Shown: positions 17,001 through 30,271 of the stretch, one piece after another
How the letters are laid out: each line of letters starts with the position of its first letter
Position numbering within the stretch: position 1 is the stretch's first letter
DNA from: an uncultured Gammaproteobacteria bacterium
GTDB lineage: Bacteria > Patescibacteriota > Patescibacteriia > Magasanikbacterales > UBA922
DNA: 64,000 nucleotides
Assembly: GCA_965231005.1 (NCBI GenBank)
Contig: OZ246405.1
Span: 610,709-674,708, forward strand
Direction: 5' to 3'
The notes under the pieces: generated by a model
Seen by the model: the letters and a program-made list of their open reading frames with translations, nothing else
Database searches by the model: none
Told to the model about the DNA's origin: nothing
Translations under genes and position numbers: made by a program

Positions 17001-17332
17001 TTGTTGGAATTCGAGGAGTTCAATTGGATTCGTATCTCAGAGGAAAGGGGATAGATATGTCACTTCCTGAGGTGAGAGAACAATTTGAAAAAGTAGTCAC
17101 ACAGCACTATGATACTGTTCAAACATTTGAAAAGGGGATTATGCGTGGAAATACTATGAATACGCTAGAGAAGAAAATGAGAGAAATTATGCTTGGTTCA
17201 GAAGCTCTTAGCACAGATACTGATTTGTCTCGTTTTACTGGTTGGTTTGAAAGGGAAGTCCTTCCTCTATTCAAAAAGGCTGTTCATGCTGCTGAAGTCC
17301 GAAAGAGTAAGGCTGCTTTTCCACTAGAATAA
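14057..17332 (+). CDS. Large (1091 aa) hypothetical coiled-coil/charged protein
   Basis: Long ORF with no recognisable catalytic motifs. Many Lys/Glu-rich heptad-like stretches. Confidence 0.5.
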   Translation: MVHRIILLTMSPDANNVVELFPENEYGPDRGPVSDEQKEANRKAKGELGDILRKLEDLQSLRDKVETTLIEDVEALIQHINNKEYHDEVVVQVKELREKLDEINKKMEGVSKSIETREVRKQRESFEFTVSDVLDVVGRDKLRNIMVHFPDMNAGERQQVFTGLFDHLDEEQSKNLNRVRRKKAFEVFEPFFQTAKQKKALDEAKRAPNDQVRVKLFEAAGLIEDETDRENVLHTLSEISFSDDDNKAFIKTWKDNMALQALDSVEFYEYGAAEQKVLELAAIEAKKGKKKKKYKQTSLKQKFVNLGKGIKNLAVAAGQHVKKEWWAMAPAATLGLVARHAALSTTPDFYAKALELTGDESQSAFLAAGGAAALGTYALAEHGIRALKTRLSVKPDKAFAEVSGLAKDMYVSDQKKGGEWVLAGHISHILQHGGKEGQQTHERHVEVLKVIAKELRKNGEKVEANSEFMKAALLAIDVKDRKRGGQSILSEKYQSLGFIRRTIAEVRDQFYTKKWKDIGVGGSALQWMSGAALHTLHKGLIGGTIAWPMQRPEIFGLFSERLAARFGAAAVPGWLQELATKRGEQKEDKWEIERKRLEKAVSPEAYGKLTLYKATKVSEDQLLDIQREITELNYYISTWSDVSSLSSDGNKLKRAGRKITTNVRKQFQSDLLDVWPRYKTAALGLHQEYERLYEEKRQELIEKQLAKVSKSLSEAGKTKQREKMQEALPEKLKKREKKRNKNIPKKTFDMKLPDEKTPTERLLGNSKVEVADRRKTLVQGLKMGMLAAAFGKAFDMARVHFPHIFDRPPEVIPHGAFAGWDEDPFIDHDRYDQYGNEIFPDDAYPSQGEEASPPAETPQEPTVPKRDRTKEEIRRLAGLGGRSGRVEDIPVQGEDALVTEKDEVAKGTGLDSSKDGSAALIGEPKEPTWEEKIAERGSPAESLSKTEQYMKYLMREEPKKYSKADFKLFQHMQSILEKQNEFVGIRGVQLDSYLRGKGIDMSLPEVREQFEKVVTQHYDTVQTFEKGIMRGNTMNTLEKKMREIMLGSEALSTDTDLSRFTGWFEREVLPLFKKAVHAAEVRKSKAAFPLE

Positions 17333-17539
17333 AAAATTAGCCCTTTGACTCGTCACTTCGTTCCTCGCTAAGGACAAGCAAAAAACAAAGAACAAAAAAC
17401 AAGTATTTTAATTGGTATTATTCTTGAAAAAAATTACTAAAATGGCTTAAATAAGTCATTTTTTTCATTTCTTTATGTTTCTTACCTTTTTACTTTTTAG
17501 CATTTTCGCTTTTTTGCATTTTTAGTGATTGCAAAGTAC

Positions 17540-17568
17540 TTGACAAAATGGTAAAAATATGGTACAGT
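17540..17568 (+). promoter_or_regulatory. Sigma70-like promoter TTGACA-17-(TGg)TACAGT, copy 1 of a duplicated promoter cassette
   Basis: tacttgacaaaatggtaaaaatatggtacagtttgc matches 21721-21756 except for 2 nt. Confidence 0.55.
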
Positions 17569-17720
17569 TTGCTGTTTACAGTGCCCATATTGTGTATGAG
17601 CAGCATTTGTTGTGATCTCTTAGATTGTGACAGTTGCCAAGCAATATTTTTTCGCTGAAGTAAGCTAAAAAGTGCTGTAAAAAAATGCACATTACAAATA
17701 CATGATGCACCTATGTGTAT

Positions 17721-17776
17721 TGGATTAGTCAATCAATGGATATTCTTTTTGCTGTCTTTTGATTGACTAACCCAAT
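17721..17776 (+). promoter_or_regulatory. 18-nt-arm inverted repeat ATTGGaTTAGTCAATCAA-N21-TTGATTGACTAAcCCAAT abutting the SD of the first island gene
   Basis: Arms match with one mismatch. The SD aaggagg follows 2 nt later. Confidence 0.5.
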
Positions 17777-17791
17777 CAAGGAGGTGCAGTC

Positions 17792-19882
17792 ATGTCACCA
17801 GATCAGAAAAAACCTGATGGTGGTGCACATGGTAGTGCACCGCCGAAACGATCAACACTCGAACTTCATGCTGACAAGATCGTCAGCTTGGTCCAACAAG
17901 ACGGGCCAGAGGAGAACCCCATGACCGACAAGAAGACTGATACAACAACGCCGGGTCATGAGGTTCATGATTCGAATTCTGAAACCCCACCCCCGCTGCC
18001 AAGTGTGCTCGACTCGCTTGCTCCTGAGGACATAGCAAGAATAATAAGAGGAGAATCACAACCACTGCGAAGTGAATTGGTGCGATGTCCGAACTGTGGT
18101 GCTGTCTACCCTATGGATCAGGGAAAGGTCCAGGGTGGTTCTGAAAAGGATCAACAGTGTGTGTTGTGCCTTCATGAATTCACCCTCGGTGATGACAATG
18201 AAGCACAAGCAACAGCACAGTCTGAAACCCCACCACCAGTGCCTTCTTCGAACGTTCCGGCGGACAATGAGAAAATCCAATGTCCGAACTGCAAAACCAC
18301 ATTTCGGTCCATTGAAATCCTGCTTTGGGATCGCAATTACAAGTACGTCGTCTGCAGCCACGGATTCACCATCGATAACGACACTGAAGCACAAGCAACA
18401 GCACAGTCTGAAACCCCACCCCCACCCCCACTTCCGCTTCTCATTGGGGACAATGCCCCAGGTGGGAAGAACGTGACTTGCCCAAACTGCGATAAGGTCT
18501 ATTCACTGGATCCAGCTGACTTTGTAGGTGGTTTCCCGAACGTCTTTCAGTGCGCCCTATGCAATCATTGCTTCACTATCGATGATGAAACTGACGCACA
18601 GGATGACACACCACCTGCAATTCCGACCGCGCAGCAGCGTGCAGACAGAACAGGACTGACTGAGCCGTACAAGCCACTCGCCGACATCAAAGATCCAGAT
18701 GCTGATACGTCCACGATTCGTGAAACCATGCCAAGTCACCCGGGCCAAGCTCGTCGCGCTGAAAGCGATCACTACACGCAGGATGAACTTCCTCGCGTGG
18801 AAGATGAACGTGAAACACGGCAAGACCTTCCTGTTGTCACTGGCGATGATCAAGACACCAAGCCTGACATGGACGTTGTCAAAGCCGAAGACCTCGATGA
18901 AGACGATGCTGCTGAACTGGAAAAGGATGATGGCAAGGAAGCTGAAGAGCTGCCCCCGCCGATTTCAAGTCCCATGTTCAGTCCGGAACTGCGCAAACCA
19001 AACCCTGGTTTTCAGCTGCCTCCTCATCTCGAAGAGGTCGTTCGACTCTCTGCTGCTTCAACTCCCGATTCTCTTGCTTCCGGCGATGACGATCCATTCG
19101 GCGACGGCGGAGATCCCTTTGCTGGCCCAGGCACGAATCCCTTTGCTGTTGACGCAGATGATCCCTTCGGTGCTGAAGTTCCGTTCGGTCCAGGAGATGA
19201 TCTTGGGATGAAGGACGAAGACTACGGTGGTCCGAATGATTCTGTCGACGATGGTGATGAATTGCCTCCTGTCATGCCGGCTGATTCCAGTAAGGCGGCT
19301 CCCAAGCCGTCGCTGATTACTGGTTCCAGACCAAGGTTTCGTCCGACTGGACCTGTGCCTTCGGTTCACGATCAAGACGACAAAAGTGGCCCCCCGCCTC
19401 CTCGTCGTCAAGATCATCGAAAGACAATCCGAGTTCCACGTCATCGGCCGACTGCTCGTCCAGTGCCACCACCACCTCCTGGCCCGGCTCCCATTCGAAC
19501 GCCGACGCCTAGTGGTGGTTCACCCATTCCTGCATCTGCACCTGTTTCTACTCCGCCTCCGGCTGCGAGTACAACAGGACCGTCTGCTGCACCAACCCAG
19601 GCTGCTGCGGCTCCGCCCGCACAGTCACAACCGCCGGCTCCAACTGGGCCAGTGGTTGGTCCGACGGCATCAAGTGGCAGTGCTACTACACCGGTCAAGA
19701 CCAACAAGACCGTTGTGTGGATCATCGCCATTCTGATTGTTGCATGCCTGGCTCTCAATGCCTTTAGCGTGTGGCAAAGCAGAAACATCAGAAAGAACGT
19801 CATCGCGGTTCTGAAACATCGCGCTGGCATCCAAAAGGTCATTCAGGCTCCAATGCCGAAGACCAAGGGGGAAGAGAAATGA
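17792..19882 (+). CDS. Hypothetical protein with N-terminal Cys4 zinc-ribbon-like repeats, an acidic/Pro-rich disordered region and a C-terminal TM anchor
   Basis: GC-rich ORF with a strong SD. Three recognisable CPNC-x15-24-C-x2-C units, each ending in an acidic linker with EAQATAQSETPPP in the first two. A near-identical 35-nt segment recurs at 18197 and 18381. C-terminal helix TVVWIIAILIVACLALNAFSVW. Confidence 0.55.
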   Translation: MSPDQKKPDGGAHGSAPPKRSTLELHADKIVSLVQQDGPEENPMTDKKTDTTTPGHEVHDSNSETPPPLPSVLDSLAPEDIARIIRGESQPLRSELVRCPNCGAVYPMDQGKVQGGSEKDQQCVLCLHEFTLGDDNEAQATAQSETPPPVPSSNVPADNEKIQCPNCKTTFRSIEILLWDRNYKYVVCSHGFTIDNDTEAQATAQSETPPPPPLPLLIGDNAPGGKNVTCPNCDKVYSLDPADFVGGFPNVFQCALCNHCFTIDDETDAQDDTPPAIPTAQQRADRTGLTEPYKPLADIKDPDADTSTIRETMPSHPGQARRAESDHYTQDELPRVEDERETRQDLPVVTGDDQDTKPDMDVVKAEDLDEDDAAELEKDDGKEAEELPPPISSPMFSPELRKPNPGFQLPPHLEEVVRLSAASTPDSLASGDDDPFGDGGDPFAGPGTNPFAVDADDPFGAEVPFGPGDDLGMKDEDYGGPNDSVDDGDELPPVMPADSSKAAPKPSLITGSRPRFRPTGPVPSVHDQDDKSGPPPPRRQDHRKTIRVPRHRPTARPVPPPPPGPAPIRTPTPSGGSPIPASAPVSTPPPAASTTGPSAAPTQAAAAPPAQSQPPAPTGPVVGPTASSGSATTPVKTNKTVVWIIAILIVACLALNAFSVWQSRNIRKNVIAVLKHRAGIQKVIQAPMPKTKGEEK

Positions 19883-21558
19883 ATACGTTTATCAAGGTGC
19901 TACTCGCCATTCTCATCGGGGTTGTGGTCGCTGTGTCCGGCTACTTCGCATGGGAAACCATGAACACGAACAAGGCGCTCCTCGCTGAACTGAACAAGAC
20001 CGACAACGGTGCCCAGGAGGACACCAAGGTCAAGCCGGCGCCGAAGAAGTCGGCTGTCAAGAAAGCTGACAAGGCTTCCACGTCCCAGGCCAAGACGGCC
20101 GGCGACAAGAACGACCCCAAGAAGGTCGAGGAAGCTGCGAAGGCTGCCGAAGCCAAGAAGAAGGCCGAGGCCGAAGCTGCTGCCAAGGCTGCTGAAGCGA
20201 AGAAGAAGGCTGACGAAGCTCGCAACGACTGGGATGAAATCAACTCCCGTGGCGACGACCAACTCAGAGCTGAGAAGTTCGACGAAGCGTTCAAGACCTT
20301 CAAATCCTTGATCGGACACGAGCATCAGAATCATGGACTGGCTTACTACAACATCGCCTGCCTGTTCTCGGTGCAGTCTGTGTCAGACAAGCTCAAGGGC
20401 AAGAAGAAGGCGATTCGCAAGAGCAAGAAGCAAGCCCTCCACTACCTGGCTCAGGCCTGGGTAGCCGGCTACGACGACCTCGAATGGATGGAGAAAGACG
20501 AGGATCTCGATTCGATCCGCAAGACCCGCGGCTACAAAGAGATCAAGCGTCTGGCAGTGGAAAAGGGACTGGTTCGGCTCCCTGCGCCGGCCACCGAAGA
20601 CGTCGCCAAGAAGGCCAAGGATGAGCAGAAGGAACCCACGCCCAAGCTGACCGGCATCCACGCCCTGCGTGCCATGCCGATCAAGGGAGTTGCCGATTCT
20701 GACGAAGCCAGCAAGGCTGACAAGGACGCCAAGCGCATCGCCAACGCCAACGCCAAGAAGGTCAAGGGCAAGAAGGTTCGCAAAGGCAGCCGCGGCATCT
20801 CGTTCCTGGCCAAGGCTCGAGCCGAAGCCAAGCGGATGTACGCCAAGCTCCACAAGGACCAGAAGGCTCGTCGTGCAGCGCTCAACCGTGCGATCGCCCG
20901 ACTCAAGCGTGGCTACAAGCGCAAGAGCGATCTTGACAAGCAGGACGTTGACGACGAGATCGCAGAGCTCAAGCGAAAGGAGCAGGAACAGTCCGACGAC
21001 GAGGATCGGAAAGCCAAGGAAGAGGCCGAAAGGATGCTCGCCGACGGCAAGACCCAAGACGAGGTCAAGGCTATGTACGATGCTCTGGAGCGCAAGCAAC
21101 AGGCTCGTCGTGCAGCGCTCCTCAGCAAGATCGCGGACGAGCAAAGGCAGGCACGACAGCAGCGTCAGGATGATGCAGTCGACCTTCGCGATGAGATCGC
21201 CAAGCTGCGCGAAGCCGACAAAAAGGCTGACACGCAGTCCGCGGCAGCTGCCAAGGATCACGTGCAAGCCTTGTTCGACAAAGCGCAAGCCGCGACCAAC
21301 CGCGCCAACGCAAAGCGCGCGCGTCAACAGCGTCAGCGTGCGGCAGCGCCCTCGCGTCCGAGCTCGCCGCCCAGCCGTCCGGCTTCGGGTGGTTCGTCCA
21401 GCCTCGCACATGCGCCTGCGGCAGTTTCCAGCTGTCCGTATGGTGGAGACGAGGCCAACTGCGTCAAGAAGACGGTCGCGTACTTGACCAAGTTCGGTAC
21501 GCCCCTGGCCGATGCCAAGGGGAGTGCCAAGGCCAAGTGCAGCGCGCGCTGTCTGTAG
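19879..21558 (+). CDS. Membrane-anchored TPR/coiled-coil protein ending in a four-Cys module
   Basis: The ATG overlaps the upstream TGA (ATGA), indicating translational coupling. N-terminal TM helix. TPR-like GLAYYNIACLFS. Lys/Ala/Glu-rich coiled coil. C-terminus SCPYGGDEANCVKKTVAYLTKFGTPLADAKGSAKAKCSARCL. Confidence 0.55.
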   Translation: MNTFIKVLLAILIGVVVAVSGYFAWETMNTNKALLAELNKTDNGAQEDTKVKPAPKKSAVKKADKASTSQAKTAGDKNDPKKVEEAAKAAEAKKKAEAEAAAKAAEAKKKADEARNDWDEINSRGDDQLRAEKFDEAFKTFKSLIGHEHQNHGLAYYNIACLFSVQSVSDKLKGKKKAIRKSKKQALHYLAQAWVAGYDDLEWMEKDEDLDSIRKTRGYKEIKRLAVEKGLVRLPAPATEDVAKKAKDEQKEPTPKLTGIHALRAMPIKGVADSDEASKADKDAKRIANANAKKVKGKKVRKGSRGISFLAKARAEAKRMYAKLHKDQKARRAALNRAIARLKRGYKRKSDLDKQDVDDEIAELKRKEQEQSDDEDRKAKEEAERMLADGKTQDEVKAMYDALERKQQARRAALLSKIADEQRQARQQRQDDAVDLRDEIAKLREADKKADTQSAAAAKDHVQALFDKAQAATNRANAKRARQQRQRAAAPSRPSSPPSRPASGGSSSLAHAPAAVSSCPYGGDEANCVKKTVAYLTKFGTPLADAKGSAKAKCSARCL

Positions 21559-21577
21559 TCTGATCTGGTGAGAACCT

Positions 21578-21645
21578 GGCTTCCCGGTGCTCGTACGTTT
21601 ATTCGTACTTGCATCGGGAAGCCTCCTCACTTTCTTCTTTTTCTT
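21578..21645 (+). terminator. Terminator hairpin ggcttcccggtgctcgtacgtttattcgtacttgcatcgggaagcc plus a T-rich tail
   Basis: Long near-perfect stem immediately after the stop at 21558. Confidence 0.5.
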
Positions 21646-21723
21646 GAAAAGAGGGGAAAGCAGGGAAAATACCTTATTTAAGCCAAAAAAGATAAGTTTT
21701 TATGGTCTATAAAGCCTAAATAC

Positions 21724-21752
21724 TTGACAAAATGGTCAAAATATGGTATAGT
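21724..21752 (+). promoter_or_regulatory. Sigma70 promoter TTGACA-17-TATAGT, copy 2 of the duplicated cassette
   Basis: Near-identical to 17540-17568. Confidence 0.55.
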
Positions 21753-21943
21753 TTCTGGTCAAAATTGATAAAATATATACCCTTATCTATTGGCGTGCCA
21801 GTGCATAATCCATGCAATATGCAGTGCGCGCGAGTGTGATAAGGTACAGAAAATGTACATCGTACATTCTTTGTGTGTCACACCGCTTTCCAGACGTTTT
21901 AACGTCATCCAACAGGTTCATTACATTACTACATCACTACAAC

Positions 21944-22074
21944 TGTTCGATCGGTAAACAAGTTCATAATATTTGTGTACTGCTTTACCGGTCGAACATT
22001 TCACATCGCCTTTCTGACCGGGGGCACAGTTAATTCCAAGGTACGTTACCAAGGAACAAATTGACTGCGCCTGG
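21944..22074 (+). promoter_or_regulatory. Conserved ~130-nt structured 5' leader element, copy 1
   Basis: About 90% identical to 24885-25014. It contains a 14-bp stem GTTCGATCGGTAAA/TTTACCGGTCGAAC and a variable sub-hairpin. Confidence 0.5.
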
Positions 22075-22112
22075 TTTTCTGGGCGACGTGAAACAACAGA
22101 AGGAGGTGCGCA

Positions 22113-23402
22113 ATGGCGTACGCCGTTCGAAAAACCCGATCCGGGGGTGCCGGACAATACGTTTCAGTTTTTTCCGACCGTGCTGCGGTTCTCCGAAAAA
22201 TCGCGCGAGGGATGATCCGCAAGGGTGCGTTCATTCGCGTGGTTCCGGACACGGCTGCTACCAACGATGGCGAGAAGGCCGCAGTCAAGGCTGATCTGGA
22301 TAACGCGGATTTCGTGCTCATCGAGAACCATCCGCATTTCGCTGGCATCAACTTCCCGGCGCCTGCTGACGCTTCGGCTGCTGCGACTGCGGATGCTGCG
22401 GCCACCCGTGCGAATGCCAATGCTGCTGCGGCCAATGTGACCGTTGCGGAGGCTACTGCTGCTCAGGCTCAAACCGAAGCCGACGCTGCTAACGCTCGTG
22501 CCAACGCTGCTGATGCCGCCACTGCTCAGGCCAACGCCGAGGCTACTGCTGCTCAGGCTCGTGTCGACGTTGCCAACGCTGCTGCTGCTCAGGCCAACGC
22601 CGAGGCTACTGCTGCTCAGGCTGCTGGGGATGCTGACGCTCAAGTTGCTGCTGCAGAGGCTGTTGCGGAGGCTGCTGCTGCTCAGGCCGATGCTGCTCAG
22701 GCACATGCCGACGCGGTTCAGGCTGCTGCGGATGCTGCTCAGGCTGCTGCGGATGCTGCTGACGCTGCTACCCAGGCTGGTGCTGCTGCCGGTCAGGCTC
22801 TGATCGCTACCAGTCAAGCTCGGGATGCTGCTGCTGAGGCTGAGGCTGAGGCGCTCGAGGCACAGGCCGATGCGGACGATGCTGCTGCCTTTGCTCAGGC
22901 TCAGGCCGACGAGCGGGCCAATCGCCGTTCGGTTCGGTTCGTCGCGTGGCTGCGTCGCAACTGGAAGAAGGTTCTGCTGGCTCTGCTGGTTCTCCTCCTT
23001 CTCGGTTGCGTGTGGTTCTTCTGGAGCAACATCAAGGCCCTGGTCACGGGGGGTGGTGGTTCGCCGCCGCCTTCGGTGGTGAACCCGCCGACCCCACCGA
23101 CGCCGCCCGTTCCGACGCCGCCCGTTCCGCCGCCGCCGGCTGCGACTCCGGTCGTTCCGCCGCCGACGGTGACGCCTCCGCCACCGCCCGCGACTCCGCC
23201 GGTTTCGCCGACGGTCACGCCTCCGCCGACCCCGCCGACTTCGGGGGGCACGGCAGCGCCGACTGGACAGCCTGGCTGTCCGTTCGGTGTGGGGTACACG
23301 GACTGTTACACCAAGACGGTGGCCTACCTGGTCAGCCATGGTGTGGCGACTTCGGACGCGCAGGACAAGGCGCGCGAGAAGTGCGGACCGCGTTGCAGGT
23401 GA
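22113..23402 (+). CDS. Bitopic protein with an Ala-rich repeat region, a Pro-rich linker and a C-terminal four-Cys module paralogous to the one at 19879
   Basis: SD aggagg. Repeats AATAAQANAEATAAQA. TM helix VLLALLVLLLLGCVWFFW preceded by a basic stretch. PPTPP linker. C-terminus GCPFGVGYTDCYTKTVAYLVSHGVATSDAQDKAREKCGPRCR. Confidence 0.55.
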   Translation: MAYAVRKTRSGGAGQYVSVFSDRAAVLRKIARGMIRKGAFIRVVPDTAATNDGEKAAVKADLDNADFVLIENHPHFAGINFPAPADASAAATADAAATRANANAAAANVTVAEATAAQAQTEADAANARANAADAATAQANAEATAAQARVDVANAAAAQANAEATAAQAAGDADAQVAAAEAVAEAAAAQADAAQAHADAVQAAADAAQAAADAADAATQAGAAAGQALIATSQARDAAAEAEAEALEAQADADDAAAFAQAQADERANRRSVRFVAWLRRNWKKVLLALLVLLLLGCVWFFWSNIKALVTGGGGSPPPSVVNPPTPPTPPVPTPPVPPPPAATPVVPPPTVTPPPPPATPPVSPTVTPPPTPPTSGGTAAPTGQPGCPFGVGYTDCYTKTVAYLVSHGVATSDAQDKAREKCGPRCR

Positions 23403-23824
23403 TGTAGCCTGTTGGAGGGAAGCCCGCTACCGGCGCATGCATTCGTGTGTGTGTCCGGTAGCCCTCCAACCGCTTTCTTTTATAAAAGAGAAAGAGGTTG
23501 GGGGAATACAAAATTAGAAATTGGAAATTAGGGATTAAGTGTATTGACATATTGAGTAATAGAGAAAAGAAATTTTCTTTAGTACTCAGGGTGTCATGTA
23601 GACATTATTGTAAAATTACAATGTGTCTCGTGTCCTGATTAGACAGGTTCATTATAATTTAGTTGAAGAATAACTATCTGGTGGGTAAAAAGATAATATA
23701 CATATGTTACTTTTTTTCTCACCAGATAGTGGCACGTGCCGCTTGTTTCTTCGTCGCCCTTGGGGCATTTCACAAATGGCCCCATCGGTGAGGAGGGGCA
23801 AGGCAACAACAACAGGAGGACGCG

Positions 23825-24724
23825 ATGAACATCCGTCTCGTTTCGTTCATGATCGTCGCATCGGTGACGGTCGGTTTCATTTCCATCAACTCATTCGCGC
23901 AGGCACCGGCCGACTACCCAGCCGTTCGCGACGATGCGCACAAGGGTGCTTCGCTCGCCGAGTCCAACGCCAAGCGCCTGACCGCCCTGGAGAAGCGGAT
24001 CAAGCGGCTCAAGCGCGCCAAGGCTGCGGCCAAGGCCAAGCACACGGCCAACCCGACCCCCGCCAACAACGTCGCTCTGAAGGCCGCGGTCCGCGCGCTC
24101 GACGAGGCCAAGAAGGCAGGTCTGTCCATGTGCGCCCTGAAGACTGGCGAGGATTTCCGGCACTGCATCGACGTCGTGGAAGGCAAGGTGTTCGAGGTGG
24201 AGAAGGACTCCATCCGGATGGCCGCGCTGCTCGCAGTCGGCTGCATCGTGAAGGAGAACAAGTCCACAGATCCTTCCAAGGGTTCGAAAAAGGGCGCATC
24301 CATCACGACCACCGAGCTCGTCTGCGACAAGGACAAGGCCAAGAAGGCGCCGCGCTGCATCCGGTTCAAGCGCTTCAGCAAGCACGCGCACACCTACTTC
24401 GACGTCGGCGGTGACAACTGCAAGGAAGAAGACAGCAACCCGCTGCCCAAGAAGCCGGCGACTCCGCCCAAGCCCAAGGCCGAACCGTGGTCCAAGGGCA
24501 AGCGTTTGCTGGCCAGCGCTGGCATGTGCCTGCTGGCCGGTGGTGTGCTCGCTGTTCCTGGTTACGTCATCGGCGACGCCATCGAGGGCGGTCACTGGGA
24601 GACCAATCCGGAGACCGGCAACGACGACTGGTATGCGCCCAAGGGTCCGCTCGGTGCTGGCATCGGCGGTCTGACCGGCTGCCTCAGCGCGTTCGCGGGC
24701 ACATGGAGTGCGACGAGCGAGTAG
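23825..24724 (+). CDS. Secreted Cys-containing hypothetical protein
   Basis: SD aggagg. Signal peptide MNIRLVSFMIVASVTVGFISINSFAQA. Seven Cys residues. Gly-rich hydrophobic C-terminal segment. Confidence 0.5.
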   Translation: MNIRLVSFMIVASVTVGFISINSFAQAPADYPAVRDDAHKGASLAESNAKRLTALEKRIKRLKRAKAAAKAKHTANPTPANNVALKAAVRALDEAKKAGLSMCALKTGEDFRHCIDVVEGKVFEVEKDSIRMAALLAVGCIVKENKSTDPSKGSKKGASITTTELVCDKDKAKKAPRCIRFKRFSKHAHTYFDVGGDNCKEEDSNPLPKKPATPPKPKAEPWSKGKRLLASAGMCLLAGGVLAVPGYVIGDAIEGGHWETNPETGNDDWYAPKGPLGAGIGGLTGCLSAFAGTWSATSE

Positions 24725-24884
24725 CCTTTCTTCAACTGCTGAATCTGTCGGGGGTTGGTAGCATGTTCATTCATGTCTGTCAACCCCCGTCGGAATATCT
24801 TTCTCTTTGTAAAAAGGGAGAGATGAACGATTATTGTTCATTACAATTGAGAAACTACTACAGAAACATCTTGAATACCTTTTG

Positions 24885-25014
24885 TGTTCGATCGGTAAAC
24901 AAGTACATAACATTTGTGTACTGCTTTACCGGTCGGACATTTCCACATCGCCTTTTTGACCGGGGGCACAGTTAATCCGTGGCGTGTTGCCGCGGACCAA
25001 ATTGACTGCGCCTG
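24885..25014 (+). promoter_or_regulatory. Conserved ~130-nt structured 5' leader element, copy 2
   Basis: See 21944-22074. The same position relative to the downstream SD and start. Confidence 0.5.
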
Positions 25015-25071
25015 AGAAATTGGGCGATTGTGGAATGATTCGGGCGAGACCCGAGAAAAGAGAGGTAACTC

Positions 25072-28000
25072 ATGAACAGCAAGCTCAACACGATTTCCGT
25101 TTGTTTCGTGGCGCTGATGATCGTTTTCGGGTGCAGCCCGGACGCGAGCTACAAGCCCAACGACCCCAAGAACCCCAACCCGGCCCGCAAGGCCGATGCC
25201 AACAACAGCGACACCAGCAGCGCGGATGCGGGTTCGAGCGCGGATACCGGTCAGCCGACCGATCCGTGCGCCGATCCCAAGTTCTGCAACGATGGCAAGG
25301 TCTGCACGGCCGACACCTGCAAGGACGGCAAGTGCAAGCACACCATCGACGCGACGCTCTGTGATGACGGCAACCCCTGCACACATGACCTGTGTGACGA
25401 CCTGGGGATCTGTGTGAACAAGGCTCACGAAGGTTCGTGCCAGGACGGGAATGCCTGTACTGTGGGTGATCATTGCAAGAATGGCACCTGCCAGTCGGGA
25501 AAGAACATGCCCTGTCCCAACGAGAACTCGTGTGTCATCGCAACCTGCAACCCGAAAGAAGGCAAGTGCAACTACGAGCCCAAGAGCGGTGACTGCAACG
25601 ACGGCAACAAGTGCACGGTTGGCGATTTCTGCATCAACCAGAAGTGCAAGAGCGGTTTCAAGAAGTTGGACTGTGATGACAAGAACGTGTGCACGACTGA
25701 CAGCTGCAATCCAGAAGACGGTTGTGTTCACAAGCCGATCGACCTTCCCTGCAGCGACAACAGCTCGTGTACCATCTCGGATAAGTGCAAGGACGGAAAA
25801 TGCGTGGGCCAGGTTGTCAACTGCGACGACAAGAACCCGTGCACGACCGACTCGTGCGATCCGGCGGCGCCCCCGGGCAAGGCATGCAAGCACGTGAACA
25901 ACACCAGCGAGTGCGACGACGGCAACAAGTGCACGTCCGGCGACGTTTGCCAGGATGGTCAGTGTAAGAAGGGAACCACGTCGGTCGATTGCGACGACGG
26001 GAACCCGTGCACTACCAATTCCTGCGACGCCAAGGTCGGCTGCCAGAAGCTCAACAACAACAACTCGTGCGACGACGGCAACAACTGCACCATCAATGAC
26101 AAGTGCTTTAACGGCAAGTGCAACTCCACTACCAAGAAGTGTGGCGACAGCAACAAGTGCGTCACCAACACGTGCGACCAGGCAACTGGCGCGTGTGTGA
26201 AAAAGGAGCTGTGCGACGACGGCAAGGCCTGCACCGAAAACACGTGCGACATCAACACCGGCAAGTGCGAAAACCCTGACAAGAAGTGCGACGACGGCAA
26301 GGCCTGCACCAAGGATAGCTGCAACACCACCACGGGCAAGTGCGAGTACGAGATGATCGTTGGTGCGAACTGCTTCTGCAAGTTCGACTCCAACTGTGAC
26401 GACGGAAACGAGTGCACTGTCAGCGCATGCGATAAGGCGACTGGCAAATGCGCGCTCGCGAAGAAGTACAGCGGGACCTCGTGTGACGACGGGAACCCGT
26501 GCACCACCTCGGACAAGTGCGACCCCAAGACCGGCAAGTGCTCGTCGGCAAAGGCCACGGCCTGCGACGACGGGAACCCCTGCACGGACGACTCCTGCGA
26601 CCCCACGGTCGTTGGCGGTTGTGTGGCGGTGAAGAACAACAAGCTGTGTGACGACGGTGACGCGTGCACCAAGGGTGATATCTGCCTGGACGGCGCGTGT
26701 AACCCCGGCAAGGCCCCGGTCTGCGACGACGGCAACATCTGCACGGATGACAGCTGTGACTCGAAGCTCGGATGCAAGAACACGGCCAACTCGGCCAGCT
26801 GCTCGGATGGGAGCGCCTGCACCTCAAACGACAAGTGCGAGGGCGGGAGCTGCAAGAGCGTTGCGGTGAAATGCGACGACTCCAACCCCTGTACCGACGA
26901 TAGCTGCGACGCGAAGGTCGGCTGCAAGTACGCCAAGAACACCAAGCCGTGTAACGACGGTGACGAGTGTACCATCAGCGAGGTGTGCAAAGACGGCAAG
27001 TGTGGTTCTGGCAAGGCCAAGTCGTGCGACGACAACAAGAAGTGTACCATCGACTCGTGCGACAAGGACAAGGGCTGCCAGCACAAGCAGATTTCCTCGG
27101 CGACCTGCTGCGCTTCGGACGCTGAGTGCGACGATAAAAAGCCGTGCACGGTGGACAAGTGCGATCCGAAGGAAGGTTGCAAGAACACCAAGAAGCTCTG
27201 CTCGGACAACAACCAGTGCACCGACGACGTGTGTGATCCCCAGTCTGGAGATTGCAAGCACACGAAGTTCAGTGGACCGGCCTGCGACGACGGCAACAGT
27301 TGTACCAAATCCGAGAAGTGCGAAAAGGGCAAGTGCGAAGCTGGCTTTACCATCAAGTGCAACGACAACAAACCCTGCACCAAGGATACGTGCGACACCA
27401 AGGGCGGATGCGTCTTCACCAAGACCGTGGATCCCTGCGACGACGGGGACGCGTGTACGAATGGAGACAAGTGCGCCAATGGCGAGTGCGTGTCTGGCAA
27501 GCAGATCGTCTGCGACGACAACAAGGTCTGCACGACCGACAGCTGTGACTCCAAGAAGGGGTGCGTGTTCGCGAACAATTCGGATGCCTGTACGGACGGA
27601 AACGCCTGTACACCGAATGACGTCTGCAAGGACGGCAAGTGCTCGTCGCAGCCTGAGAACTGTGACGACGCGAACGCGTGTACCAACGACAGTTGTGACA
27701 AGAGCAAGGGCTGCAAGCACATCAACAACACCAAGGTCTGCAACGACGGCAACAAGTGTACGGACAACGGAGTCTGCAGTGGCGGCGCCTGCAAGCCGGG
27801 CAAAGCCATCAACTGCGACGACGGCAAGAAGTGCACGACGGATAGCTGTGACCCGACCACGGGCAAGTGCAAGAACGTGGCGCTGGTGTGCGATGACGAC
27901 GCCTGTACGGATGGCGATGGCAAGTGTGACGAGAGCACGGGCAAGTGTGCAGTGGGTCTTCCCAAGAACTGCACTGACACCGACGTGTGTACCAAGAATT

Positions 28001-28593
28001 TCTGCTCGGAAGGAACCTGCAAGGTCTCTCCGAACTGCGATGACGGGAACGCATGCACGGCTGATAGCTGTGACCCAAAGAAGCCCGAGAAGGATCAGTG
28101 TTCGCACGTCCCGATCTCGGGTTGCAAGTCGGTCGAGGTCAAGCTCTCCGTGGTTTTTTCTGAGATGTTCAAGATGGAAGCCGCACCCAAGGGTGGCAAC
28201 TACGTCCGGTTCTTCGTCAAGAAGTGCGAGGCCAAGGCTGCTGACGGCTCGTCCGTCATGTTGCTCAAGCCTGGCTCCTTCTACGGAGGCGCTGAGATCA
28301 AGAACAGCTCGAAGCTCGAGTACACCAATCCTGCAAAGGTCCAGGACTTCGTGCAGATCCCGAAGAATGCCTGCTGCATCAACATCGTAGGGTACCAAAG
28401 CAGTAAGATCTCCAATCCTTACGGGGACTCGAAGATCTGGGCTTTCAGTACGACTCCCAATACCAAGACCCACAACATGGAGCCGGTCCTCACGACCAGC
28501 AATGGACTGACGTACAAGTTCACGTTGAAAGACGTCCATGACAACGGTGTGGGGGGATACGACGCGTGCAACAGCGAAGTCATCTCCAAGTAG
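25072..28593 (+). CDS. Giant lipoprotein with ~60 tandem Cys-rich repeats (CDDGNxCTxDxCD...) and a distinct ~170-aa C-terminal domain
   Basis: Signal/lipobox MNSKLNTISVCFVALMIVFGCS. Regular ~12-aa repeats with an invariant Cys-Asp-Asp-Gly-Asn-x-Cys-Thr pattern, reminiscent of Myxococcales-type Cys-rich repeats. The repeat register confirms the + frame. Confidence 0.65.
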   Translation: MNSKLNTISVCFVALMIVFGCSPDASYKPNDPKNPNPARKADANNSDTSSADAGSSADTGQPTDPCADPKFCNDGKVCTADTCKDGKCKHTIDATLCDDGNPCTHDLCDDLGICVNKAHEGSCQDGNACTVGDHCKNGTCQSGKNMPCPNENSCVIATCNPKEGKCNYEPKSGDCNDGNKCTVGDFCINQKCKSGFKKLDCDDKNVCTTDSCNPEDGCVHKPIDLPCSDNSSCTISDKCKDGKCVGQVVNCDDKNPCTTDSCDPAAPPGKACKHVNNTSECDDGNKCTSGDVCQDGQCKKGTTSVDCDDGNPCTTNSCDAKVGCQKLNNNNSCDDGNNCTINDKCFNGKCNSTTKKCGDSNKCVTNTCDQATGACVKKELCDDGKACTENTCDINTGKCENPDKKCDDGKACTKDSCNTTTGKCEYEMIVGANCFCKFDSNCDDGNECTVSACDKATGKCALAKKYSGTSCDDGNPCTTSDKCDPKTGKCSSAKATACDDGNPCTDDSCDPTVVGGCVAVKNNKLCDDGDACTKGDICLDGACNPGKAPVCDDGNICTDDSCDSKLGCKNTANSASCSDGSACTSNDKCEGGSCKSVAVKCDDSNPCTDDSCDAKVGCKYAKNTKPCNDGDECTISEVCKDGKCGSGKAKSCDDNKKCTIDSCDKDKGCQHKQISSATCCASDAECDDKKPCTVDKCDPKEGCKNTKKLCSDNNQCTDDVCDPQSGDCKHTKFSGPACDDGNSCTKSEKCEKGKCEAGFTIKCNDNKPCTKDTCDTKGGCVFTKTVDPCDDGDACTNGDKCANGECVSGKQIVCDDNKVCTTDSCDSKKGCVFANNSDACTDGNACTPNDVCKDGKCSSQPENCDDANACTNDSCDKSKGCKHINNTKVCNDGNKCTDNGVCSGGACKPGKAINCDDGKKCTTDSCDPTTGKCKNVALVCDDDACTDGDGKCDESTGKCAVGLPKNCTDTDVCTKNFCSEGTCKVSPNCDDGNACTADSCDPKKPEKDQCSHVPISGCKSVEVKLSVVFSEMFKMEAAPKGGNYVRFFVKKCEAKAADGSSVMLLKPGSFYGGAEIKNSSKLEYTNPAKVQDFVQIPKNACCINIVGYQSSKISNPYGDSKIWAFSTTPNTKTHNMEPVLTTSNGLTYKFTLKDVHDNGVGGYDACNSEVISK

Positions 28594-28802: not shown

Positions 28803-28831
28803 TTGAATAATAGTGTTTTTTCAAGTATACT
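28803..28831 (+). promoter_or_regulatory. Sigma70 promoter TTGAAT-17-TATACT placed for a leaderless transcript
   Basis: The -10 ends 6 nt before ATG 28838. The ORF-track GTG start at 28832 would lie inside the promoter. Confidence 0.45.
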
Positions 28832-28837
28832 GTGAAT

Positions 28838-30271
28838 ATGAAATCGCCAAATTTCTTATCTTATTTTTCACACAACCAGCTTAAAAAAACACATGTACTT
28901 GGTGTCTCTTTTATTATTATAATAATGACAGCCGCCCTTTTACTATTTTGGGATATATATCCTCTAGCAATTATATTCCTCATAGGATTAGTAGGAATAT
29001 CCACATTTGCTCTAAAACCAGAGTGGGGATTGTACAGTGTTCTCTTTCTTGGACTATTTCATGGATGGGTCATAGATTTTTCTACATATCAGAGCGTCAA
29101 ACATATTCCATATCTTCCTCAGATCAATGCTCCTTTGGTTGATTTCTTTGCGATTGTTTTATTCATTGGAGTTTTTCTTTTATATTTATTTCAATTTCAA
29201 AAATTAGCTATTTTGAAACGTCTAAGACACATCAAAACAGGAATAGTTATATATATTCTTTTTCTTATCACAGCACTTGCAGCTGTTTTTTTTGCATTTA
29301 ATAATTTTTTTACACCAAGTATAAAATATTTTATGCGACCGCTGGTGTTTGTGTTTGTTTTGTATTGGCTCTTGCCAATTATTCTTATTAGAACAAAAAA
29401 ACAATTTTCATCTGTAATGAAACTATGGTTCTGGACTGGTATTGGCATTGCAATATTTGGTTTGATATCTTTATTTGTTCTTGGGCAAACAGGATGGATT
29501 CGTGTTGTTCCATTTGGCATAAAAGGGTTTGCCCCACTTGGATACAATCATAATCAACTTGCAGAAGTATTAATTTCTTTATTTCCTGCTGGACTATTTC
29601 TTTTCTTACGAAGTTTTTCAAAAGAAGAAAAAAGATTGTATGGTTTTGGAACATTTTTTATTATTATCATTGCACTCCTAACACTTTCTCGGGCTGCTTG
29701 GGCTGCAGTACTTGTACAAGTAGGCTTTCTCTTTTGGTTTTTCCGTTCAGCAGTGCGTCCATTCATGTATAAATTTCAAAAGATAACCACGCTATTATTG
29801 ATAGCAATTATTCCAGCTATTCTTTACATGAGTGTTTTTCTTGGATCGTCCATTGTAAAAAGTTCAACAAATGCCCGAGTGGAAGCAACAAAAATCGCAT
29901 TATTTTATACTGTTCGTTCTCCAGTCGTTGGATATGGTCCTGGTATGTTTGGCTATGTTATGGATGACACGTTTTTGTACACGCTCGAATTTGGAGAGTC
30001 GCTTGATGCACATGGGTTTATTCAAAAAGTCATGTTAGAAGAAGGATTTCTTGGCTTGCTGTTCTTTGTTGGTTTTTTGGGTTGGATATTGTGGTATATA
30101 TATCAGGCAAGAGAACATGGCATGCAAAGAGATCTTGTTGAGGTATTATTTGTCATGGCAATAGGAGCAATTATTTTTCAACTATTTAATACGTCCTATT
30201 TTAATTCTGTAATGTGGTTGCCACTTGGGGTGGCCACTGCTGGAACGCTTCTTTTAAAAAATGATTCCTAG
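28838..30271 (+). CDS. O-antigen ligase-like (Wzy_C) polytopic membrane protein
   Basis: At least 10 hydrophobic helices. LTLSRAAWAAVL matches the O-antigen-ligase family motif. Confidence 0.55.
   Translation: MKSPNFLSYFSHNQLKKTHVLGVSFIIIIMTAALLLFWDIYPLAIIFLIGLVGISTFALKPEWGLYSVLFLGLFHGWVIDFSTYQSVKHIPYLPQINAPLVDFFAIVLFIGVFLLYLFQFQKLAILKRLRHIKTGIVIYILFLITALAAVFFAFNNFFTPSIKYFMRPLVFVFVLYWLLPIILIRTKKQFSSVMKLWFWTGIGIAIFGLISLFVLGQTGWIRVVPFGIKGFAPLGYNHNQLAEVLISLFPAGLFLFLRSFSKEEKRLYGFGTFFIIIIALLTLSRAAWAAVLVQVGFLFWFFRSAVRPFMYKFQKITTLLLIAIIPAILYMSVFLGSSIVKSSTNARVEATKIALFYTVRSPVVGYGPGMFGYVMDDTFLYTLEFGESLDAHGFIQKVMLEEGFLGLLFFVGFLGWILWYIYQAREHGMQRDLVEVLFVMAIGAIIFQLFNTSYFNSVMWLPLGVATAGTLLLKNDS

What the first reader, a model, noticed from the sequence alone, without database searches (positions are those of the whole stretch)
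21944..25014. Duplicated ~130-nt structured 5' leader upstream of two unrelated island genes (candidate cis-regulatory RNA)
Segments 21944-22074 and 24885-25014 are about 90% identical. They sit at the same distance upstream of the SD/ATG of genes C (22113) and E (25072). Both contain a 14-bp stem GTTCGATCGGTAAA...TTTACCGGTCGAAC with a 25-nt loop. The second copy changes one pair to G-U, so the stem is preserved. Each has a second hairpin at the one position where the sequences diverge (ggtacgttacc versus ccgtggcgtgttgccgcgg), which looks like compensatory variation. A conserved tail ACAAATTGACTGCGCCTG follows. There is no U-tract, so it is not a plain terminator. The spurious ORF-track peptides across the two copies fall in different frames, so the element is non-coding.
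Basis: seen in the sequence. Interest (0 to 1): 0.7.

Follow-up and report, generated by a model that had tools for sequence, protein, structure and literature searches.

The report
Shared folded leader before three genes
Three neighbouring foreign-looking surface-protein genes each sit behind a related copy of a strongly folded, non-coding leader; it most likely steadies or processes their mRNAs, it is a new example of a known kind of element, and nothing like it turned up outside this genome.

Summary
The repeat is real. 21944-22034 matches 24885-24976 at 94.6%, and 22053-22073 matches 24994-25014 at 95%.

It is larger than reported. Each copy is about 155 nt (21944-22097; 24885-25039). It has a 55-nt hairpin 1 and a 95-nt long hairpin (domain 2).

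A third, diverged copy precedes gene D (23673-23802). It sits in the same register behind the shared motif ACAGGTTCATTAYAWT.

Structure is selected. Five of 15 hairpin-1 pairs changed on both sides and still pair. The 26 substitutions and 4 indels between the C and E copies leave folding intact (-81 kcal/mol, against -41±6 for random placement). The + strand folds better than the - strand in all three copies.

There is no Rfam match, no U-tract and no conserved uORF. No helix hiding the Shine-Dalgarno site is shared by all three. Domain 2 of D shares shape but not sequence with C/E.

Best reading: a paralogous promoter-leader module, the "mobile promoter" type, whose structured 5' UTR stabilises or processes the mRNAs of GC-rich, horizontally acquired genes. 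This is more likely than a ligand-sensing switch.

No copies were found in the other roughly 34 kb of this genome that could be read, nor in the genome, metagenome or viral scans.

Function is inferred, not shown. Moderate interest.

The parts
21912..21927 (+). Shared motif ACAGGTTCATTACATT upstream of gene C. It contains a -10-like TACATT at 21922-21927 and is the candidate proximal promoter.
   Evidence: GTTCATTAYAWT occurs exactly three times in the window, once ahead of each leader. It is the best local match between the C and D upstream regions.
21944..21998 (+). C leader, hairpin 1: 15-bp lower stem, 2x2 internal loop, 8-bp upper stem.
   Evidence: Fold; pair counts.
21999..22093 (+). 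C leader, domain 2: long irregular hairpin closed by UUUCACAUCGCC/GGGCGACGUGAAA, with a variable apical hairpin at 22035-22057.
22099..22115 (+). Shine-Dalgarno GAAGGAGGU and ATG (22113) of gene C. This lies outside the repeat.
   Evidence: Sequence; alignments.
23643..23658 (+). Shared motif ACAGGTTCATTATAAT upstream of gene D, with a -10-like TATAAT at 23653-23658.
23673..23730 (+). D leader, hairpin 1: diverged homolog of the C/E hairpin 1, at the same 26-nt offset from the motif as in C.
   Evidence: Ungapped identity 51/101 in the same register, against a best of 46 among 63,092 other registers. Five double-compensated pairs. Fold. Inverted repeat I2.
23731..23802 (+). D leader: mini-hairpin (23731-23740) plus a long hairpin (23742-23802). 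It has the same shape as domain 2 of C/E but a different sequence.
   Evidence: MAFFT aligns it poorly, and the full-length model R1 does not detect it with default filters.
24836..24847 (+). Shared motif GTTCATTACAAT upstream of gene E, with a -10-like TACAAT at 24842-24847.
24884..24940 (+). E leader, hairpin 1: 16-bp lower stem, 2x2 loop, 9-bp upper stem.
24941..25035 (+). E leader, domain 2, closed by UUUCCACAUCGCC/GGGCGAUUGUGGAA. The indel relative to C is compensated.
25040..25074 (+). E-specific small hairpin (25040-25054), SD GAGAGG (25060-25065) and ATG (25072).
21721..21754 (+). Strong sigma-70-type promoter module (TTGACA-17-TATAGT with TG) about 190 nt upstream of the C leader. It is itself a 94% duplicate of 17537-17570, which lies upstream of gene A.

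Best explanation
The element is a structured, non-coding 5' leader read on the + strand. It belongs to a small paralogous family of promoter-leader modules that precede three adjacent, unrelated genes for surface or secreted proteins (C, D, E). These genes lie in a GC-rich, horizontally acquired island within an AT-rich small genome.

Each module has the same order of parts:
1. the motif ACAGGTTCATTAYAWT, a probable -10 region;
2. a hairpin 1 of about 55 nt;
3. a long second hairpin;
4. a short single-stranded stretch carrying the Shine-Dalgarno site.

The module spread by local duplication. The cores of the C and E copies were later homogenised, probably by gene conversion.

I infer that the folded leader acts generically and after transcription. 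It would protect or process the 5' end of the mRNA, either as a 5' stem-loop stabiliser or as an RNase III-type double-stranded substrate. It would also keep the leader folded on itself, so that it does not interfere with the ribosome-binding site of the GC-rich coding sequences. I do not think it senses a specific ligand.

Shown: the repeat, its architecture, selection on its structure, its strand bias and its distribution. Inferred: that it is transcribed as part of the mRNA, and that it stabilises or processes that mRNA.
For: - **Repeat and extent:**
- **Very stable folds:** z = -7.2, -8.1 and -7.7 for the C, E and D leaders.
- **Structure preserved between C and E:** the 26 substitutions and 4 indels leave the MFE at -81.0. 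The same number of changes placed at random on the C leader gives -41.0 ± 6.4, with 0 of 1000 mutants as stable as E. The reverse test gives 1 of 1000.
- **D is a homolog.** It has the same motif at the same 26-nt offset, and 51/101 ungapped identity against a maximum of 46 among 63,092 control registers.
- **Covariation in hairpin 1.** On a sequence-only MAFFT alignment, 5 of 15 lower-stem pairs changed on both sides and 96% of cells are paired. Slid registers give 0-1 such pairs and 20-46% paired.
- **Strand bias.** The MFE is -72.4/-81.0/-65.6 on the + strand and -64.6/-64.4/-43.0 on the - strand. G.U pairs number 6/8/7 against 4/4/0.
- **Against a specific sensor.** Domain 2 of D has the same shape as C/E but no recognisable sequence similarity. 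No terminator or shared anti-SD helix exists. There is no Rfam match even at E <= 5.
- **Each gene looks like its own unit.** B, C and D are each followed by a GC-rich hairpin and a U-rich tract.
- **Highly structured upstream regions mark the GC-rich genes.** Median z is -5.3, against -1.25 for native genes with intergenic upstream regions (p = 0.002).
- **The genes are foreign.** GC3 is 0.45-0.84 against 0.22-0.25 for the flanking genes.
- **Precedents.** Duplicated 5' regions before non-homologous genes are the 'putative mobile promoters' of PMC3488235. A 5' UTR stem-loop stabilises the vacA mRNA (PMC4843948).
Against: - No transcript data exist, so the TSS is unknown. If transcription starts at the -10-like motif, 8-11 nt (C, D) or about 30 nt (E) of single strand would precede hairpin 1. 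That is longer than is ideal for a 5'-end protector.
- The -35 regions ahead of the motif are poor and not conserved, and the promoter scan did not call them.
- Predicted SD accessibility is about the same for C and D, and lower for E, with the leader than without it. The 'insulator' part has no computational support.
- There are only three members, all in one locus of one genome. The C-E similarity may simply be recent. The covariation rests mostly on one diverged sequence (D).
- Template-switch repair of quasi-palindromes at the DNA level could mimic some compensatory changes.
Confidence: 0.5

Rival explanations
1. It is a specific cis-regulatory RNA: a binding site for a protein, small RNA or ligand, or a thermosensor. 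It would co-regulate the surface-protein genes C, D and E as a small regulon.
For: - The same structured element precedes three functionally similar (envelope or secreted) but unrelated genes.
- Structure is under selection.
- C and E are 94-95% identical in unpaired internal loops as well as in stems.
- In E, UACCUUUU just 5' of hairpin 1 can pair with the SD.
Against: - The anti-SD pairing is absent from C and D.
- No terminator or expression platform is present.
- Domain 2 of D shares no loop or junction sequence with C/E. The only thing common to all three is helix shape plus part of the hairpin-1 sequence.
- There is no Rfam match.
- High C-E identity is equally explained by recent gene conversion.
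Confidence: 0.2
2. The hairpins are RNase III-type processing sites in a polycistronic A-E (or C-E) transcript driven by the strong upstream sigma-70 promoters. They would cut the transcript into separately stable cistrons, as between early genes of phage T7.
For: - Hairpin 1 is about 24-26 bp of nearly continuous duplex with a central 2x2 internal loop. Domain 2 is a second long duplex.
- Strong consensus promoters exist only at 17540 and 21724.
- The intergenic 'terminators' have long loops and offset U-tracts and were not called by the terminator scan.
Against: - The motif conserved ahead of each hairpin looks like a -10 box (TATAAT in D), which suggests separate promoters.
- No RNase III gene or cleavage data were examined.
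- The shape is compatible with such a substrate but not specific to it.
Confidence: 0.15
3. It is a DNA-level element: a palindromic operator, a recombination site (attC-like), a MITE-like mobile repeat, or direct repeats that mediate deletion or duplication of the C-D segment.
For: - Hairpin 1 is an inverted repeat.
- Two direct copies of about 155 bp flank a 2.9-kb segment.
- Weak minus-strand promoter-like matches fall inside hairpin 1 of C and D.
Against: - The + strand is 8-23 kcal/mol more stable than the - strand, with 21 against 8 G.U pairs. That is unexpected for a symmetric DNA site.
- The whole 155-nt unit has no terminal inverted repeats or target-site duplication.
- The arm ends read GTTCGA...TCGAAC, the opposite order to attC R''/R' boxes.
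- No integrase or transposase was found among the 16 window proteins scanned.
- Only three copies occur in 98 kb.
- A 55-nt palindrome is far longer than a typical operator.
Confidence: 0.08
4. It is a functionless by-product: a recent segmental duplication or gene-conversion tract whose hairpins are incidental.
For: - There are only two close copies.
- No homolog was found outside this genome.
- Two-member, about 92%-identical 'mobile promoter' pairs are common in genomes (PMC3488235).
Against: - The differences between the copies avoid or compensate stems far more than chance allows.
- The diverged D copy keeps hairpin 1 through five double changes.
- All three fold 7-8 SD better than shuffles.
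Confidence: 0.07

Closest known systems
Putative mobile promoters (PMPs; Matus-Garcia et al. 2012, PMC3488235)
   Same: A stretch of at least 50 nt at 80% identity or more, upstream of non-homologous genes in one genome. Both the upstream and the downstream coding sequences are unrelated. Most PMP families have two members at about 92% identity. Here 92 columns match at 94.6%, C is unrelated to E and B is unrelated to D.
   Different: PMP is an operational class with no mechanism attached. Here the shared part is mainly the transcribed, highly structured leader, not the promoter hexamers. There is also a third, diverged member with compensatory changes.
5' UTR stem-loop mRNA stabilisers. Examples: H. 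pylori vacA (PMC4843948); E. coli ompA, B. subtilis aprE and S-layer gene leaders (from my own knowledge).
   Same: A stable hairpin near the presumed 5' end of a long leader of a secreted or surface-protein gene, with the SD outside the hairpin. The vacA stem-loop raises mRNA level and half-life.
   Different: Those elements are usually single short stem-loops within a few nt of a mapped TSS. Here there are two long hairpins totalling about 155 nt, no mapped TSS, and a predicted 8-30 nt single-stranded 5' tail.
RNase III processing hairpins between genes of phage T7, and in bacterial leaders such as rnc and pnp (from my own knowledge)
   Same: An irregular duplex of 20 bp or more with a central internal loop, placed between cistrons or in a leader.
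   Different: No cleavage evidence exists. The island has no phage-family hits apart from one weak low-complexity match.
Riboswitches and other Rfam cis-regulatory leaders
   Same: A conserved structured RNA between promoter and SD.
   Different: No Rfam family matches. There is no multi-helix junction with conserved unpaired nucleotides across all members. There is no terminator or shared SD-sequestering expression platform.
Correia/ERIC-type MITEs that bring promoters and RNase III sites upstream of genes (cited in PMC3488235)
   Same: A short repeat with inverted-repeat arms upstream of genes, which may be transcribed into a hairpin.
   Different: The inverted repeat is internal (hairpin 1 only) and not at the ends of the repeated unit. 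There is no target duplication. Only three local copies exist.

Membership tests
Any Rfam family (riboswitch, leader, sRNA) | Covariance-model match at the family's gathering score | tested here: not met
   The gathering-score scan of the window finds only tmRNA and tRNA. An E <= 5 scan of 17300-25200 gives no hit on the leaders.
Putative mobile promoters (PMC3488235) | At least 50 nt at 80% identity or more in the upstream regions of two genes of one genome | tested here: met
   92 columns at 94.6%. Criterion quoted.
Putative mobile promoters (PMC3488235) | Downstream and upstream coding sequences are not homologous | tested here: met
   C vs E gives E = 2.2. B vs D gives E = 3.3.
Intrinsic (Rho-independent) terminator or attenuator | G+C-rich stem followed directly by a U-tract | tested here: not met
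   Hairpin 1 is followed by ACAUUUCAC (C), ACAUUUCCAC (E) and GGCACG (D). No terminator-like site is reported there.
Riboswitch | Conserved unpaired nucleotides (ligand pocket) shared by all members | tested here: not met
   Domain 2 of D shares no sequence with C/E. Only helix shape and parts of hairpin 1 are common.
Riboswitch | Expression platform: alternative helix sequestering the SD, or a terminator | tested here: not met
   An anti-SD pairing is predicted only in E. None is predicted in C or D, and there is no terminator.
5' stem-loop mRNA stabiliser | Stable stem-loop in the 5' UTR with the SD left outside it | tested here: met
   the SD lies 6-25 nt 3' of the last helix of the leader.
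5' stem-loop mRNA stabiliser | Stem-loop within a few nt of the mapped 5' end; its disruption shortens mRNA half-life | not testable with these tools
   No transcript data are available. A TSS predicted from the -10-like motif would leave 8-30 nt unpaired.
RNase III substrate | About 20 bp or more of (near-)continuous dsRNA | tested here: met
   Hairpin 1 has 15-16 + 8-9 bp around a 2x2 loop. Domain 2 has more than 30 pairs.
RNase III substrate | Cleavage by RNase III | not testable with these tools
   Needs an in vitro cleavage assay or 5'-monophosphate end mapping.
Integron attC site | R'' (RYYYAAC) at the 5' end and R' (GTTRRRY) at the 3' end of an imperfect palindrome, with an integron integrase nearby | tested here: not met
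   The arms read 5'-GTTCGA...TCGAAC-3', the reverse order. No integrase was found among the 16 window proteins scanned.
MITE (Correia/ERIC-like) | Terminal inverted repeats at both ends of the repeat unit, a target-site duplication, and many dispersed copies | tested here: not met
   The unit ends (TGTTCGATC... / ...GACGTGAAA) are not inverted repeats and no duplication flanks them. There are 3 copies in 98 kb, all in one locus.

The most novel reading that the evidence does not exclude
The leader would be one part of a portable expression cassette: a promoter module, a structured leader module and a terminator module, each duplicated within this locus. This reduced AT-rich genome would copy the cassette onto GC-rich ORFs acquired from other bacteria (Myxococcota-like for gene E). 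The leader itself would be a new, lineage-specific cis-regulatory RNA recognised by a dedicated factor that coordinates expression of the acquired surface proteins.
Probability: 0.15. Interest if true: 0.7.

Novelty: new member of a known kind. Interest (0 to 1): 0.4.

Why it matters
If the reading is right, the locus shows concretely how a small AT-rich genome puts foreign GC-rich genes to work. It would do so by duplicating ready-made promoter, leader and terminator modules rather than evolving signals anew.

It also adds an unannotated structured-leader family with internal covariation support.

Its practical value is modest. The two covariance models can be used to scan the complete genome and sister MAGs. 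The three leaders make a compact test set for 5' UTR stabiliser or processing function.

It does not overturn anything known.

Tried and rejected
**Searches for homologs that found nothing:**
- Exact-pattern scans: TGACCGGGGGCACAGTTAA in species-representative genomes and in IMG/VR.
- TTTACCGGTCG-N20-40-ACCGGGGGCAC and GTTCGATCGGTAAACAAGT in JGI metagenomes.
- GTACTGCTTTACCGGTCG in IMG/VR.
- CAAATTGACTGCGCCTG in IMG/VR gave 3 loci. None matched model R1, so they are chance 17-mer hits.
- Exact-match scans are insensitive below about 95% identity, so absence is weak evidence.

**Protein routes to orthologous loci:**
- Protein D has no homolog by either search.
- Protein A matches only itself.
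- The 1091-aa flanking host protein has no relative in the genome collection.
- E has only repeat-level homologs, at most 44% identity, mostly in Myxococcales MAGs. The upstream regions of two of them (L005, L006) are GC-rich and carry no leader.

**Walking out of the window.** I obtained 10 kb on each side (L003, L004). Neither holds a copy.

**Other negatives:**
- Model R1 (full length) does not detect the D leader with default filters. The link to D rests on the register test and the hairpin-1 alignment.
- The hairpin-1 model R2 with filters off finds only weak AT-rich hairpins elsewhere, at most 24 bits.
- A stringent local alignment of the C and D upstream regions recovers only the 12-nt motif.
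- The SD-accessibility calculation showed no benefit from the leader.
- A PHROGs scan of the island gave no real phage signal.
- A literature search for the ENA project accession found nothing.

**Readings rejected:** terminator, attC site, MITE, leader peptide/uORF (the only GTG-started frame is broken by indels between the copies), and stand-alone sRNA (no terminator 3' of domain 2).
Full report
**Setting**

The window comes from a genome of about 35% G+C. Two window proteins are recorded on a 1,232,850-bp NCBI contig. The window carries a tmRNA gene and a tRNA-Asp gene.

Between 17792 and 28593 lies an island of 54-66% G+C with five + strand genes:

| Gene | Coordinates | Features |
|---|---|---|
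| A | 17792-19882 | zinc-ribbon protein |
| B | about 19912-21558 | Lys/Ala-rich |
| C | 22113-23402 | Ala- and Pro-rich, with a hydrophobic segment |
| D | 23825-24724 | signal peptide |
| E | 25072-28593 | lipoprotein signal, 18 Dicty_CTDC repeats |

Domain assignments are; the other features were read from the translations. Third-codon G+C is 0.45-0.84 in the island and 0.22-0.25 in the flanking genes, so the island is foreign in composition. E's nearest relatives are repeat proteins of Myxococcales-type MAGs at 44% identity or less. A and D have no detectable homologs. The spacers between the island genes are 42-45% G+C.

**Checking the observation**

The repeat is real.
- 21944-22034 aligns to 24885-24976 at 94.6% over 92 columns.
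- 22053-22073 aligns to 24994-25014 at 95%.
- The roughly 18 nt in between have diverged.
- Core words occur nowhere else in the window, and shuffles expect 0.03-0.19 matches.

The stem, the G-U change in copy 2, the divergent second hairpin and the conserved 'tail' are all as described.

Four corrections are needed.
1. The distance to the ATG is 169 nt for C and 187 nt for E. E has an extra small hairpin at 25040-25054.
2. The '25-nt loop' folds into an 8-9 bp upper stem.
3. The 'tail' is the 3' strand of a second, long hairpin (domain 2). Its closing helix is UUUCACAUCGCC/GGGCGACGUGAAA in C and UUUCCACAUCGCC/GGGCGAUUGUGGAA in E. It reaches 22093 and 25035.
4. There is a third member upstream of D.

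**The third member**

The motif GTTCATTAYAWT occurs exactly three times in 64 kb, at 21916, 23647 and 24836. Each copy lies just ahead of a leader.

In C and D the first base of hairpin 1 lies at the same 26-nt offset from the motif. An ungapped comparison in that register gives 51/101 identities. The best of 63,092 other registers in the window gives 46, around a mean of 26.4 with SD 4.5.

The D leader folds into the same architecture. It has a 58-nt hairpin 1 (23673-23730), a mini-hairpin, a long hairpin (23742-23802), and then the SD, with z = -7.7.

**Is the structure selected, and on which strand?**

All three leaders fold 7-8 SD better than dinucleotide shuffles.

Between C and E there are 26 substitutions and 4 indels. 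RNAalifold keeps 54 pairs with none broken. One pair is changed on both sides, three change to G-U, two A.A mismatches become pairs, and one indel in the closing stem is compensated.

Placing the same number and type of changes at random on the C leader gives an MFE of -41.0 ± 6.4 kcal/mol (minimum -66.3). The real E leader folds at -81.0, and 0 of 1000 random mutants reach it. The reverse test gives 1 of 1000.

I also counted hairpin-1 pairs across C, E and D on a MAFFT alignment made from sequence alone.
- 5 of 15 lower-stem pairs changed on both sides.
- 96% of cells are standard pairs.
- Registers slid by 1-3 columns give 0-1 such pairs and 20-46% paired.

The sense strand is more stable than the antisense strand in every case, and it has more G.U pairs.

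| Leader | + strand MFE | - strand MFE | G.U pairs (+/-) |
|---|---|---|---|
| C | -72.4 | -64.6 | 6/4 |
| E | -81.0 | -64.4 | 8/4 |
| D | -65.6 | -43.0 | 7/0 |

This favours a structure read as + strand RNA over a symmetric DNA site.

Caveat: there are only three members from one locus, and the covariation signal rests largely on D.

**What it is not**

- It matches no Rfam family, at gathering score or at E <= 5.
- It is not an intrinsic terminator: no U-tract follows either hairpin.
- It is not coding: the only GTG-started frame is shifted by indels between the copies.
- It is not an attC site: the arms read GTTCGA...TCGAAC, and no integrase was found among the 16 window proteins scanned.
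- It is not a MITE: the repeat unit has no terminal inverted repeats or target duplication, and there are only three copies in 98 kb.
- A stand-alone sRNA is unlikely, because nothing terminates transcription between domain 2 and the SD.

**How it most likely works**

The three modules share the same order of parts: motif (with TACATT, TATAAT or TACAAT as a -10-like box), hairpin 1, a long hairpin, and a single-stranded SD.

Genes B, C and D are each followed by a GC-rich hairpin and a U-rich tract. C, D and E therefore look like separate transcription units that need a promoter in the short spacer. The motif is the only conserved candidate.

Several results argue against a ligand- or factor-specific switch and for a generic structural role.
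- Domain 2 of D keeps the shape of C/E but none of its sequence.
- No SD-sequestering helix is shared. An 8-bp anti-SD pairing is predicted only in E.
- There is no terminator.

That generic role could be protection of the mRNA 5' end, or an RNase III-type processing site. Both are established functions of long 5' UTR hairpins. One example is the vacA stem-loop, which raises mRNA level and half-life (PMC4843948). My own knowledge adds ompA, aprE, S-layer leaders and T7 intergenic sites.

Very structured upstream regions are typical of the GC-rich genes here. Their median z is -5.3, against -1.25 for native genes with intergenic upstream regions (p = 0.002).

The idea that the leader insulates the SD from the GC-rich coding sequence found no support. 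Predicted SD pairing is about the same for C and D, and higher for E, with the leader than without it.

**Origin**

The locus is a mosaic of duplicated regulatory modules.
- A 34-nt consensus sigma-70 promoter is shared by A and C at 94% (17537-17570 and 21721-21754).
- The leader is shared by C, D and E.
- A pyrimidine/purine hairpin after the terminator is shared by the spacers after B, C and D.
- C resembles D in the motif and in the SD-proximal AACAACAG-AGGAGG-GCG-ATG. C resembles E in hairpin 1 and domain 2.

This pattern suggests an old triplication followed by gene conversion between the C and E cores.

The arrangement meets the operational definition of 'putative mobile promoters'. That definition requires at least 50 nt at 80% or more upstream of non-homologous genes, with unrelated upstream genes (PMC3488235).

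**Distribution**

No copy was found in any of these:
- the 10 kb on either side of the window;
- the upstream regions of two Myxococcota-type homologs of E;
- exact-word scans of the genome, metagenome and viral collections.

Two independent metagenome assemblies of the same strain carry host genes joined to A and B; one of them (L001) extends into the start of C and carries an identical C leader. The junction is therefore not an assembly artefact.

Exact-word scans miss anything below about 95% identity. The source lineage is also absent from the genome collection. Absence elsewhere is therefore weak evidence.

**Verdict**

The interpretation as a structured, non-coding sense-strand leader is supported. 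'Regulatory' is unproven, and a generic stabilising or processing role is more likely than a switch.

It is a new, locally confined member of a known kind: a duplicated promoter-leader module with a structured 5' UTR. Interest is moderate at 0.4. The more unusual aspect is the cassette-like reuse of promoter, leader and terminator modules on foreign GC-rich genes.

Noticed in passing
17537-17570 and 21721-21754: A 34-nt consensus sigma-70 promoter module (TACTTGACAAAATGGTmAAAATATGGTAyAGTTT; TTGACA-17-TAyAGT with an upstream TG) is duplicated at 94% upstream of genes A and C. It is a second 'mobile promoter' pair in the same island.
   Followed up: partly
17792-28593 and 4596-5423: These are GC-rich genes in a genome of about 35% GC. 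GC3 is 0.45-0.84 against 0.22-0.25 for the neighbours. The solitary gene at 4596-5423 has the same layout as the island genes: a TTGACA/TATACT promoter-like pair read at about 4485-4513 (this region was not scanned), a hairpin leader, an SD and a downstream hairpin. This looks like repeated horizontal acquisition with native-style expression signals.
   Followed up: partly
21625-21665, 23470-23500, 24795-24825: After the GC-rich hairpin that follows each of genes B, C and D comes a second, related hairpin of the form CTTTCTyTTT..AAAAGrGrrAAAG. The 3' ends of the gene units are therefore paralogous modules too.
   Followed up: no
24876-24883 with 25060-25067: In E only, UACCUUUU immediately 5' of hairpin 1 can pair with the SD GAGAGGUA (8 bp, 2 G.U). 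This would close a multi-branch loop around the whole leader. C and D have no counterpart.
   Followed up: partly
28826-28840: The native Wzy_C/O-antigen-ligase-like gene downstream of the island has a -10 box TATACT at 28826-28831 and an in-frame ATG at 28838. It may therefore be translated from a leaderless mRNA, in contrast to the long leaders of the island genes.
   Followed up: no
22360-22900 (gene C) and L001/L002: Gene C contains a long degenerate Ala-rich (GCT-rich) repeat region followed by a Pro-rich tract. One of the two metagenome assemblies (L001) ends inside this repeat; the other (L002) ends earlier, in gene B.
   Followed up: no
17792-19882 (A), 23825-24724 (D): Proteins A and D are orphans. 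A matches only itself among 5.8 billion clustered proteins. D has no full-length homolog in 1.84 billion representatives. The exact sequences of C, D and E are not in the protein collection.
   Followed up: partly
21759-21943: The 185 nt between the strong promoter at 21724-21752 and the C leader is itself structured (z = -4.0). It is unrelated to the leader of A. If the upstream promoter is used, C has a leader of about 350 nt with four hairpin domains.
   Followed up: no
whole window; L003, L004: The host lineage is poorly represented. Five of eight large host proteins had no NCBIfam match. The 1091-aa flanking protein has no relative in 185,579 species-representative genomes. The island sits among envelope-polysaccharide genes: Wzz-like, Wzy_C, GT4 glycosyltransferases and a carbamoyltransferase.
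   Followed up: no
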